Assembly (NCBI GenBank): GCA_964016885.1
Contig: OZ024755.1
Coordinates: 40,672,001-40,736,000, forward strand
Direction: 5' to 3'
Origin: Eledone cirrhosa
Lineage: Eukaryota
Length of the DNA: 64,000 bases
Part shown: positions 32,160 to 42,249 of the stretch, in pieces
How the letters are laid out: every line of letters begins with the position of its first letter
Position numbering within the stretch: position 1 is the stretch's first letter
Notes under the pieces: model-generated
Told to the model about the DNA's origin: nothing
What the model saw: the letters and a program-made list of their open reading frames with translations, nothing else
Databases searched by the model: none
Program-made: the position numbers and the translations under genes

Positions 32160-32246
32160 TCTCGCGAGACGGATTCGAACCATCGACCTAAGGATGACAG
32201 TTAACTCCACTACAGTCCTCCGCTCTGCCAACTGAGCTATCGCGAG
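32160..32246 (-). tRNA. tRNA-Tyr: tRNA-Tyr(GTA) with a 14-nt intron (32196-32209)
   Basis: Minus strand reads CTCGCGA TAGCTCAGTTGGCAGAGC G GAGGA CTGTAG [tggagttaactgtc] A TCCTT AGGTC GATGG TTCGAAT CCGTC TCGCGAG A. It has a 7-bp acceptor stem, C1:G72 and A73, A and B boxes, and the intron at the canonical 37/38 position. Confidence 0.96.
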
Positions 32247-32840: not shown

Positions 32841-33014
32841 AAAATGTTTAACCACGACGGCAGAGCTCAAGCCGTTTCGACGGCTATTTCTGGAGTCCAG
32901 AAATAGCCGTCGAATCGGGGTTAAACATTTTCCCATTACCCACTCTACTACCCCAAGTATTGAGTACTCTGGTGCGTTATGGTCCACCTGGTTCCTTACC
33001 ACACTTCCTTCGTT
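32838..33014 (+). mobile_element. Family B element with a fold-back 5' end and half-hammerhead
   Basis: Hairpin centred at 32895. Minus-strand GAAACGGC..GCCGTC at 32856-32878. Homologous to 33135-33249 and 39282-39482. Flanked by (TA)n. Confidence 0.75.
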
Positions 33015-33037
33015 ATATATATATTTATATATATATA

Positions 33038-33134
<97 letters not shown>

Positions 33135-33135
<1 letters not shown>

Positions 33136-33249
33136 ACGAAGGAAATGTGGTAAGGAACCAGGTGGACCATAACGCACCAAAGTACTCAATACTTGGGGTA
33201 GTAGAGTGGGTAATGGGAACCGGTAAGACCCCGGTAAGACCGGTTCCTA
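33135..33249 (-). mobile_element. Family B 3' fragment, tail-to-tail with the previous copy across (TA)n
   Basis: 33135-33218 is the reverse complement of about 32931-33014. Confidence 0.8.
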
Positions 33250-34087: not shown

Positions 34088-34229
34088 AGTTTATGTTGGT
34101 TGTATACCAACACCTCAGTATGCAGGCTGGAGCACTCGACGAGGTGCGCAGGTTGGTTTGGTTACTCCGGAGTAGTGTAAAATAAAGTTAAATAAAAAGT
34201 CAAATGATTAAAATTTAGCTTCGTTTATT

Positions 34230-34284
34230 ACTGCTATATATATTTCAGTGACAGCCATCTTTGGCTGTGACCTCTTCAGGCAGT
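34230..34284 (-). ncRNA. Minimal type I hammerhead ribozyme (family E)
   Basis: Reverse complement of 34487-34541. Confidence 0.85.
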
Positions 34285-34486
34285 TTGAATTAGTATGGTA
34301 TAGACAAGTACATATGTTGTTTAGGTGTATAATATTGTCAATACTCTGATATGCCCAGGAACTGGAGTCATATGACTCCAGTTCCTCAGTGAAATAACAA
34401 CCCAACAAGGAACTGGGCATATCAGAGTATTGACAATATTATACACCTAAACAACATATGTACTTGTCTAAACCATACTAATTCAA

Positions 34487-34541
34487 ACTGCCTGAAGAGG
34501 TCACAGCCAAAGATGGCTGTCACTGAAATATATATAGCAGT
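34487..34541 (+). ncRNA. Minimal type I hammerhead ribozyme (family E)
   Basis: ACTGC CTGAAGA GGTCACAGCCA aaga TGGCTGTCACT GAAA TATATA TA| GCAGT. Predicted cleavage after 34536. Confidence 0.85.
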
Positions 34542-34585
34542 AATAAACGAAGCTAAATTTTAATCATTTGACTTTTATTTAACTT

Positions 34586-34653
<68 letters not shown>

Positions 34654-34826: not shown

Positions 34827-34910
34827 ATAATAATAAAATTAAAGACTAAAATCAAAAGAGGGCTCGATAAGGATAGATATATATCAAATATATAAGAACC
34901 GTAGAGCAAA

Positions 34911-35105
34911 TATTTATTAAAATAACAGATTAAAGTTTAAGCAAAGAATCGCTGCTTTCACCCTTAACGGGATCTTCTGAAACTAACAAAGTCAATCTGT
35001 AAACGCAGAACTGGATATTTCAAAAAACGTTGCAACCGGAGGAAGACAGGAAGACGATACTTTGAAAGCAGCGATTCTTTGCTTAAACTTTAATCTGTTA
35101 TTTTA

Positions 35106-35112
<7 letters not shown>
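34911..35112. mobile_element. Family D inverted element with a degenerate hammerhead-like motif
   Basis: Arms 34911-34960 / 35063-35112. Minus strand CAGAAGA T-CCC GTTAA GGG-T GAAA at 34956-34979. Stems I and III are not recognisable. Confidence 0.6.
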
Positions 35113-35134
<22 letters not shown>

Positions 35135-36860: not shown

Positions 36861-38085
<1,225 letters not shown>

Positions 38086-38284
38086 TATATATATATATAT
38101 AATAGGATATGTGTTCCTACACGCACAAGGCGCTAAGGGACACATGTATTGTCCAACCATATGCCAATGTGGTTCAATGGCAGGTTAATAAATTAACGAG
38201 CCAGAACATATATAATCAAGGTTTAGCAAATAAGATAAAGTTTCAAAATAAATTTTAAAAAATTAACTTTACTTACTATGGTTA

Positions 38285-38366
38285 CCTTTACCGAGTCGAT
38301 TTCTATTCTCAAAAATAAACGGAGTCCATACGGCCTTCGTTGCAAAGAAAGAATCTCGTCAGAAGG
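38285..38366 (-). ncRNA. Type I hammerhead ribozyme (family I), with two stem substitutions
   Basis: CCTT CTGACGA GATTCT...AGAATA GAAA TCGACTCGG TA| AAGG. Confidence 0.8.
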
Positions 38367-39012
38367 ATCTTTTCATTCGGAGAATATAAAATTCTCGAAT
38401 TCAAATTACGAACTGGCGCTATTCAAAATTGTTCCCGAGATGAGAGTAAATGAAATGGAATCAATTTTTTCAAGGGCCGAATGTAAAGATAGAGGCAGAG
38501 GCAGAGAGGTCAGATGGCTACTGCTATAACTAGCAGCAGTCAGAACGACCAAATTTTTCTCAACATAGAGGAGAATAGTTATAATAGGATATATGTTCCT
38601 ACACGCACAAGGTAACCATAGTAAGTAAAGTTAATTTTTTAAAATTTATTTTGAAACTTTATCTTATTTGCTAAACCTTGATTATATATGTTCTGGCTCG
38701 TTAATTTATTAACCTGCCATTGAACCACATTGGCATATGGTTGGACAATACATGTGTCCCTTAGCGCCTTGTGCGTGTAGGAACACATATCCTATTATTA
38801 CTATTCTCCTCTATGTTGAGAAAAATTTGGTCGTTCTGACTGCTGCTAGTTATAGCAGTAGCCGAATGACCTCCCTGCCTCCGCCTCTATCTTTACATTC
38901 GGCCCTTGAAAAAATTGATTCCACTTCATTTACTCTCATCTCGGGAACAATTTTGAATAGCGCCAGTTCGTAATTTGAATTCGAGAATTTTATATTCTCC
39001 AAATGAAAAGAT

Positions 39013-39092
39013 CCTTCTGACGAGATTCTTTCTTTGCAACGAAGGCCGTATGGCCCGTTTATTTTTGAGAATCGAAACCGACTCGGTAAAGG
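39013..39092 (+). ncRNA. Type I hammerhead ribozyme (family I), intact
   Basis: CCTT CTGACGA GATTCTT..AACG..GGCC gtat GGCC CGTT..GAGAATC GAAA CCG act CGG TA| AAGG. GUA cleavage predicted after 39088. Confidence 0.93.
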
Positions 39093-39162
39093 TAACCATA
39101 GTAAGTACAGTTAATTTTTTAAAATTTATTTTGAAACTTTATCTTATTTGCTAAACCTTGAT

Positions 39163-39193
<31 letters not shown>

Positions 39194-39218
39194 CTATATA
39201 TATATATGTATATCTATA

Positions 39219-39584
<366 letters not shown>

Positions 39585-41551: not shown

Positions 41552-42249
41552 GATTAGTCCTAGTTTAGATTACTAAAATAGCTGTGGATGTTGAGGAGGG
41601 ATTAGTCCTAGTTTAGATTACTAAAATAGCTGTGGATGTTGAGGAGGGATTAGTCCTAGTTTAGATTACTAAAATAGCTGTGGATGTTGAGGAGGGATTA
41701 GTCCTAGTTTAGATTACTAAAATAGCTGTGGATGTTGAGGAGGGATTAGTCCTAGTTTAGATTACTAAAATAGCTGTGGATGTTGAGGAGGGATTAGTCC
41801 TAGTTTAGATTACTAAAATAGCTGTGGATGTTGAGGAGGGATTAGTCCTAGTTTAGATTACTAAAATAGCTGTGGATGTTGAGGAGGGATTAGTCCTAGT
41901 TTAGATTACTAAAATAGCTGTGGATGTTGAGGAGGGATTAGTCCTAGTTTAGATTACTAAAATAGCTGTGGATGTTGAGGAGGGATTAGTCCTAGTTTAG
42001 ATTACTAAAATAGCTGTGGATGTTGAGGAGGGATTAGTCCTAGTTTAGATTACTAAAATAGCTGTGGATGTTGAGGAGGGATTAGTCCTAGTTTAGATTA
42101 CTAAAATAGCTGTGGATGTTGAGGAGGGATTAGTCCTAGTTTAGATTACTAAAATAGCTGTGGGTGTTGAGGAGGGATTAGTCCTAGTTTAGATTACTAA
42201 AATAGCTGTGGGTGTTGAGGAGGGATTAGTCCTAGTTTAGACTACTAAA
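41552..42249. repeat. 48-bp minisatellite, ~14.5 near-identical copies
   Basis: Unit GATTAGTCCTAGTTTAGATTACTAAAATAGCTGTGGATGTTGAGGAGG. Confidence 0.97.

What the first reader, a model, noticed from the sequence alone, without database searches (positions are those of the whole stretch)
38099..38612. The opposite arm is a different circular permutation of the same monomer
Seen: the minus arm is 514 nt with a 482-nt period, and it starts and ends at different points from the plus arm. It also differs by several substitutions, for example near 38495-38515 and in the ribozyme stems. Both arms end at internal TA-rich patches (cctattat, gattatata) that merge into the flanking (TA)n. Inference: cDNA was primed by (TA)n annealing at different points on circular or multimeric RNA templates, possibly two distinct RNA molecules.
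Basis: partly seen in the sequence, partly recalled or inferred. Interest (0 to 1): 0.7.

Follow-up and report, generated by a model that had tools for sequence, protein, structure and literature searches.

The report
Two-armed Penelope-type ribozyme repeat insertion
The two back-to-back arms of this 480-base repeat do start and end at different points, but across the family their outer ends fall at just two fixed sites, one per arm, which is the known footprint of Penelope-type jumping genes and likely reflects copying of RNA from one donor into both sides of a cut in a TA repeat.

Summary
Observation confirmed; interpretation partly supported. The minus arm (38099-38612, period 482) and plus arm (38609-39169, period 480) are head-to-head copies of a non-coding, hammerhead-bearing monomer with thousands of candidate copies. 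Numbered from the predicted ribozyme cut (m1 = 38609), the arms are not free circular permutations: in 112 loci, 143 of 155 arm 3' ends lie at m79-81 or m182-197; 36 of 41 head-to-head loci pair one of each, 1 pairs like with like. Only the inner (5') ends scatter. This is the Penelope-like-element layout: inverted truncated copy, tail on one end. Arms of one locus share their subfamily haplotype (4% discordant at diagnostic sites, 44% between loci), so two unrelated RNAs are not the rule. Here 5 of 13 arm differences form a short tract matching another subfamily; most others are rare variants. TA annealing fits m81 (7 bases) but not m190 (3 bases). Circle, multimer or two sister RNAs: unresolved. 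No autonomous partner found. New member of a known kind; the scan had already reported this two-end rule for other families in this genome.

The parts
38099..38612 (-). Long-end arm: m159-480 plus m1-190 of the monomer (period 482); its 3' end at 38099 is the family's m190 end
   Evidence: m182-197 ends in 49 of 155 arms
38609..39169 (+). Short-end arm: m1-480 plus m1-81 (period 480); begins at the predicted ribozyme cut, 3' end at the family's m81 site
   Evidence: m79-81 ends in 94 of 155 arms
38609..38612 (.). Head-to-head junction, 4-nt microhomology between m1-4 and the reverse complement of m159-162
   Evidence: same junction in locus L227, which carries other subfamily alleles
38099..38207 (-). 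109-nt 'tail' (m82-190) present at this outer end only
   Evidence: compare PMC3846280, PMC8557442, PMC11167929
39013..39092 (+). Type I hammerhead motif of the plus arm; predicted cut between 39088 and 39089; 2-nt deletion in the stem II loop near 39053
   Evidence: core letters nearly invariant; stems 98.4% paired, one pair with three types; deletion seen once among the sampled units; activity not tested; no Rfam hit
38285..38366 (-). Type I hammerhead motif of the minus arm; predicted cut between 38289 and 38288; change at 38304 breaks the basal G-C pair of stem II, change at 38299 gives a wobble in stem III
38864..38882 (+). Mosaic tract (m256-274): five arm-specific letters that match another subfamily, inside a backbone shared with the minus arm
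38085..38098 (.). Left (TA)n target remnant
39170..39282 (.). Right (TA)n target remnant

Best explanation
This is one insertion of a non-coding 480-base hammerhead repeat whose two arms end at two fixed family sites, likely made when a Penelope-type enzyme cut both strands of a TA repeat and copied RNA from one donor lineage backwards from each cut end. Shown: two arms, head to head, outer ends at m81 and m190, inner ends variable, same haplotype backbone, 4-nt overlap at the joint. Inferred: one DNA end primes at m81 and the other at m190; each reverse transcriptase runs back for a variable length over a more-than-unit template; the plus-arm copy ran off at an RNA end made by the ribozyme; the two cDNA ends were joined by microhomology. 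The arm differences would be a short tract taken from another subfamily (gene conversion or template switch) plus ordinary decay. Whether the template was one multimer, one circle read twice, or two sister RNAs is open.
For: 3' ends: 94 at m79-81, 49 at m182-197, 12 elsewhere, of 155 arms in 112 loci; with short internal queries alone, 53 of 54 arms. 36 of 41 head-to-head loci pair the two sites, 1 pairs m81 with m81, 4 have one or both ends elsewhere (36 of 37, P = 3e-10); 6 of 6 further loci fetched also pair them. 5' ends cover the whole monomer. 103 of 117 3' flanks begin with (TA)3. Junction overlap or gap of -4 to +3 nt in 30 of 41. Diagnostic-site discordance: 49 of 1131 between arms, 77 of 1297 within arms, 186388 of 419794 between loci. 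Hammerhead covariation. RT plus C-terminal GIY-YIG frames occur in this genome. Same layout described for Penelope-like elements (PMC3846280, PMC8557442, passages); two internal RT start sites bounding the tail and extension of both strands shown in vitro (PMC11167929, parts 1-2 of 4).
Against: No autonomous element carrying this monomer was found in 34 GIY-YIG loci, so the enzyme is inferred from the footprint. The tail is 109 nt, not 30-40 nt. m81 has 7 nt of TA homology, whereas PMC11167929 reports starts without homology. This locus is more discordant than most (6 of 46 diagnostic comparisons), and its m1-190 identity (0 of 178) is somewhat unlikely even without the tract (P 0.008-0.04). 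Run-off at the cut is weakly supported: 6 of 80 other arms start at m478-4 (P 0.001 against uniform), but 19 of 80 start anywhere in m1-40. No public contig bridged this junction. The sample is the top of each search, biased to close and, long copies.
Confidence: 0.72

Rival explanations
1. Classical twin priming on one linear RNA of about 1150 nt (cut 5' end, two full units, then m1-190 and the donor's own UA run): the first primer anneals to the UA run behind m190, the second to the TA patch at m81 one unit upstream; m82-158 is lost at the joint.
For: Fits this locus exactly, including the start at the cut and unit-specific variants; L227 and L228 show the minimal form (m1-81 with m159-190; m5-81 with m153-190); tandem arms of 1286-1680 nt ending at m190 exist as possible donors; m81 is the best TA patch.
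Against: As a family rule the end-to-end fit is absent: 32 of 36 long-end arms run past m81 of their own unit and only 6 of 36 stop at m70-130; in L107 and L229 both arms begin at the cut and cover the same m1-81; single-arm copies end mostly at m81 (55 of 69), partly by query bias.
Confidence: 0.3
2. One reading: a circular or multimeric RNA is entered wherever (TA)n can anneal, giving free circular permutations, with two unrelated RNA molecules at this site.
For: Arms longer than one unit (6 of 155 over 960 nt); locus L218 shares four rare variants over all covered units of both arms, as one circle would give; five plus-arm letters match another subfamily.
Against: Two fixed 3' sites in 143 of 155 arms; other TA patches (m130, m387) used by 0 of 117 arms; both arms here share the minor m279C/m290T lineage with L011 and L016; L186, which shares the tract, differs from the plus unit at 21 other places; L220 has variants in three internal units but not in the terminal unit or the other arm.
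Confidence: 0.1
3. Fold-back or local DNA inversion-duplication: one cDNA (or one inserted copy) loops back and copies itself, as proposed for palindromic Penelope junctions.
For: Perfect 187-nt inverted match of m1-190 here; 6 of 41 junctions are near-palindromic; self-priming proposed in PMC3846280 (passages); would explain the shared haplotype.
Against: In 21 of 36 mixed pairs, this one included, the short-end arm is longer than what the long-end arm could template in register; the two long units differ at 13 places, five of them alleles found in other copies.
Confidence: 0.1
4. Assembly or long-read fold-back artefact.
For: Inverted repeats in microsatellites are hard to assemble; no public contig bridged the junction.
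Against: An artefact gives mirror-identical arms; these differ and end at two family-specific sites in 36 of 41 loci; the same joint recurs at L227 with different alleles.
Confidence: 0.03

Closest known systems
Insertions of endonuclease-bearing Penelope-like elements: partial tandem, inverted 5'-truncated copy, tail at one end (PMC3846280, PMC8557442; passages read)
   Same: Head-to-head inverted arms, variable 5' truncation, one-sided tail, microhomology joints, (TA)n targets, hammerhead in the repeat.
   Different: No coding frame; tail 109 nt rather than 30-40 nt; the papers call the tail optional and, in the passages seen, give no count of how the two ends pair.
Poseidon element of Anolis in vitro (PMC11167929; parts 1-2 of 4 read)
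   Same: Two internal start sites downstream of the hammerhead that bound the tail; both DNA strands cut and extended; AT-rich target; dimer predicted.
   Different: There the sites lie 111-118 nt into the ORF, lack target homology and are used by both strands alike; here they lie 109 nt apart in non-coding RNA, one has 7 nt of TA homology, and opposite ends use different sites.
Metazoan non-LTR retrozymes (PMC7229834, passages; preprint 10.64898/2026.07.22.740005, part 1 of 5 and passages) and pseudo-LTR hammerheads (PMC4209133, passages)
   Same: Non-coding, low-GC (37%) tandem monomer with a type I hammerhead with short palindromic stem III; dispersed copies; proposed Penelope origin.
   Different: Monomer 480 nt, slightly above the 150-450 range given; mostly 1-1.5 units per arm in opposed pairs; expression and circles not shown here.
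L1 twin priming and dual priming (PMC2837659; passages read)
   Same: Both target strands prime; cDNA ends joined head to head.
   Different: No poly(A); both starts are fixed family sites; arms usually overlap widely in sequence instead of abutting.

Membership tests
Penelope-like element (autonomous, EN+) | ORF with RT and GIY-YIG endonuclease | tested here: not met
   Longest stop-free stretch 86 codons in six frames of a doubled monomer; no tblastn hit to 34 GIY-YIG loci. Such frames exist elsewhere in the genome.
Penelope-like element (insertion footprint) | Partial tandem with an adjacent inverted 5'-truncated copy | tested here: met
   41 of 43 multi-arm loci are head to head.
Penelope-like element (insertion footprint) | Tail at one end, between two RT start sites | tested here: met
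   36 of 41 head-to-head loci pair m81 with m190; length 109 nt.
Penelope-like element (insertion footprint) | AT-rich or (TA)n target | tested here: met
   103 of 117 3' flanks start with (TA)3.
Non-autonomous derivative of a given Penelope-like family | Sequence shared with the pseudo-LTR of a coding element | tested here: inconclusive
   None in 34 loci out of 10597 GIY-YIG candidates; best match was low-complexity AT sequence.
Non-LTR retrozyme | Type I hammerhead in each unit of a short low-GC non-coding repeat | tested here: met
   Core and stems conserved, 98.4% of cells paired, one pair U-A 25 / A-U 11 / G-C 7 in 43 distinct rows; GC 37%. No Rfam hit.
Non-LTR retrozyme | Two or more consecutive units with complete hammerheads | tested here: met
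   Met by the family (arms of 1178-1680 nt); each arm of this locus holds one complete motif.
Non-LTR retrozyme | Self-cleavage; linear and circular monomer RNA in cells | not testable with these tools
   Needs bench assay or RNA reads; see Tried and rejected.
L1-type twin priming product | Two fragments of one RNA abutting end to end with a small deletion | tested here: not met
   Fits this locus, L227 and L228, but only 6 of 36 long-end arms stop at m70-130.
L1-type twin priming product | Target-site duplication | not testable with these tools
   Both flanks are (TA)n.

The most novel reading that the evidence does not exclude
The Penelope 'one-sided tail' is the mark of an asymmetric two-enzyme complex: after a double-strand cut in (TA)n, one reverse transcriptase always starts at the near site and its partner at the far site of the same RNA or circle, so that every two-armed insertion carries one of each end and one haplotype. 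The rule is seen here in 36 of 37 informative loci; my searches and the passages read did not show it counted in print.
Probability: 0.4. Interest if true: 0.6.

Novelty: new member of a known kind. Interest (0 to 1): 0.35.

Why it matters
How Penelope-like elements build their inverted, one-tailed insertions is called an open question in PMC8557442 and PMC11167929. A short, abundant passenger family gives many natural products to count, and the strict one-short-one-long pairing with a shared haplotype is a prediction that the published in vitro system could test.

Tried and rejected
Rfam found no hammerhead in either arm; a lone fold of the 96-nt motif formed stems II and III but not stem I, z -0.73, so the ribozyme call rests on motif and covariation. 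My first pair count used a stem II register off by one and was redone. A Pfam accession recalled from memory was not in the library; GIY-YIG was used instead. Search for the coding partner: nothing in 34 loci; the L180 match is AT-rich noise. Sequencing runs: no RNA holder listed, which is no evidence on expression. Contigs of 4 of 13 runs showed very high depth but no piece across the junction. RNA-editing scars: no A>G excess among rare variants (A>G 29, T>C 54, C>T 53). Hidden tiny second arms beside single arms: none clear in 69 loci by a crude scan; by eye one 11-nt piece in L009. Circle versus multimer from rare variants: mixed (14 of 118 shared in register, 11 of 154 off register, 45 of 230 within arms). 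Look-ups of earlier findings by sequence, by nearby place and by words returned nothing. Paper search for Penelope-like elements with twin priming: 0 papers. Supplements were not read; Fig. S1-S2 of PMC11167929 may bear on start-site pairing.

Full report
Setting. The window lies in a 3.0-Gb animal-type assembly, in an 11-kb stretch of microsatellites and small inverted elements between two satellite blocks. Positions 'm' count along the 480-nt plus-arm unit from 38609.

Observation. The minus arm (38099-38612, 514 nt, period 482) reads m159-480 then m1-190; the plus arm (38609-39169, 561 nt, period 480) reads m1-480 then m1-81. They meet head to head over 4 shared bases and both outer ends run into (TA)n. 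The long units differ at 13 listed places in 316 positions, five at 38497-38515 and two in ribozyme stems; the two copies of m1-190 are identical.

The ribozyme. m405-480 with m1-4 forms a type I hammerhead with a long stem II and a short palindromic stem III, the kind described for Penelope pseudo-LTRs as needing a dimer (PMC4209133, passages). Rfam does not report it. Core letters are nearly invariant in about 100 units. In 64 of 100 available motifs, aligned by reference (43 distinct rows), 98.4% of cells pair and one stem II pair occurs as U-A, A-U and G-C (0 of 500 shuffles reach 18 double changes); this is one pair in related sequences. The predicted cut falls just before m1, so the plus arm begins at the cut. 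Activity is untested.

End map. Seven searches of the own genome (40 candidates scored each, out of about 900-2800) gave 112 distinct loci after dropping overlaps, the window included; arms under 40 nt were left out. Of 155 arms, 94 end at m79-81, 49 at m182-197 and 12 elsewhere. favour long copies, but the 40 loci found by the short internal queries show the same: 53 of 54 arms. The 5' ends scatter over the monomer. Of 43 multi-arm loci 41 are head to head; 36 pair one short end with one long end, 1 has two short ends, 4 have an end elsewhere. Six more loci picked from the 48 matches all pair the two sites. So the 'different permutation' is a fixed 3' site plus a variable 5' truncation. An inverted 5'-truncated copy and a tail on one end are the described layout of Penelope-like insertions (PMC3846280, PMC8557442; passages), and in vitro a Poseidon protein extends both strands from two internal RNA sites that bound the tail (PMC11167929; parts 1-2 of 4).

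Is it TA annealing? m75-81 is the longest alternating TA run of the monomer (7 nt) and takes 74 of 117 ends; m190 has 3 nt; runs of 4-5 nt at m130 and m387 take none. Annealing is plausible for m81. m190 needs either a protein-set start or the UA run that a transcript inherits from a donor's flank.

One RNA or two? At subfamily-diagnostic sites the arms of a locus differ in 49 of 1131 comparisons, repeated units within an arm in 77 of 1297, different loci in 44% (comparisons are not independent). A shuffle of partner arms among 30 loci gave 6.9% mean divergence against 3.9% observed, below all 2000 shuffles. The arms therefore come from one donor lineage. This locus is more mixed than most (6 of 46). 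Both arms share a minor lineage with L011 and L016, but the plus arm carries five letters at m256-274 found together in L186, and four of them in six more copies of that subfamily, while L186 differs from it at 21 other places: a short conversion or template-switch tract. Most remaining differences are rare or private, including a change that breaks the basal pair of stem II in the minus arm. The substitutions thus do not by themselves show two unrelated RNAs.

Geometry. One 1150-nt linear RNA with a cut 5' end would fit this locus end to end, and L227 shows the same m1/m159 joint in minimal form with other alleles, which points to microhomology joining at a run-off end. As a family rule the fit fails: 32 of 36 long-end arms pass m81 of their own unit, only 6 stop at m70-130, and in L107 and L229 both arms start at the cut. 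Fold-back alone cannot template the short-end arm in 21 of 36 pairs. Rare-variant sharing in long arms is mixed (L218 like a circle, L220 like a multimer or later local duplication). Starts at the cut are enriched (6 of 80) but so is all of m1-40 (19 of 80).

Enzyme. The monomer has no coding frame. Frames with RT and C-terminal GIY-YIG occur in the genome, but none of 34 loci examined carries this monomer. The enzyme is inferred from the footprint.

Verdict. A real insertion and a new family of a known kind: non-coding hammerhead repeat (non-LTR retrozyme type; PMC7229834 passages, preprint 10.64898/2026.07.22.740005 part 1 and passages) with Penelope-type ends. The strict pairing of ends with one haplotype is the part worth keeping; searches did not show it counted in print, but the library lacks most subscription papers, and earlier notes of this scan report it for other families in this genome (unchecked notes, not independent support; my reading was noted before). 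Interest 0.35.

Noticed in passing
window 36862-37545: Another TA-embedded element with direct (466-nt spacing) and inverted parts and a hammerhead match (Rfam HH9, E 2.7e-7, below gathering score) at 37136-37207 minus.
   Followed up: no
window 37679-38084: Inverted element with a weak type I hammerhead match at 37718-37757; the flank 37950-38087 is itself a very high-copy repeat ending in (TA)n, so this insertion sits on the end of another repeat; L010 has a similar flank.
   Followed up: partly
window 32851-33233 and 39283-39482: Short palindromic pieces of one further family on both sides of TA runs; the right one abuts the (TA)n of this insertion.
   Followed up: no
window 34178-34592 and 34910-35113: Two more head-to-head inverted elements bounded by (TA)n.
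   Followed up: no
window 32160-32246 (-): tRNA gene; the Rfam alignment suggests an intron after a GTA anticodon (tyrosine type), ARAGORN without introns calls it Leu.
   Followed up: partly
window 5-31106, 41552-42249, 42509-64000: An 11-nt satellite with strong strand skew and two different 48-nt satellites enclose the element-rich island.
   Followed up: no
window 38610-38631 (m2-23): The 22 bases after the predicted cut match 20 of 22 in four GIY-YIG loci (L173, L176, L177, L181; E 0.2) and hold splice-donor-like words; possibly a motif shared by several families.
   Followed up: no
L171:2809-5622 (-), L172:2988-5519 (+), L173:1775-5062 (+): [quoted passage not shown]
   Followed up: partly
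L220:909-3259: 3.5-unit arm whose three internal units share variants absent from the terminal unit and the other arm: local tandem amplification or a mixed donor.
   Followed up: partly
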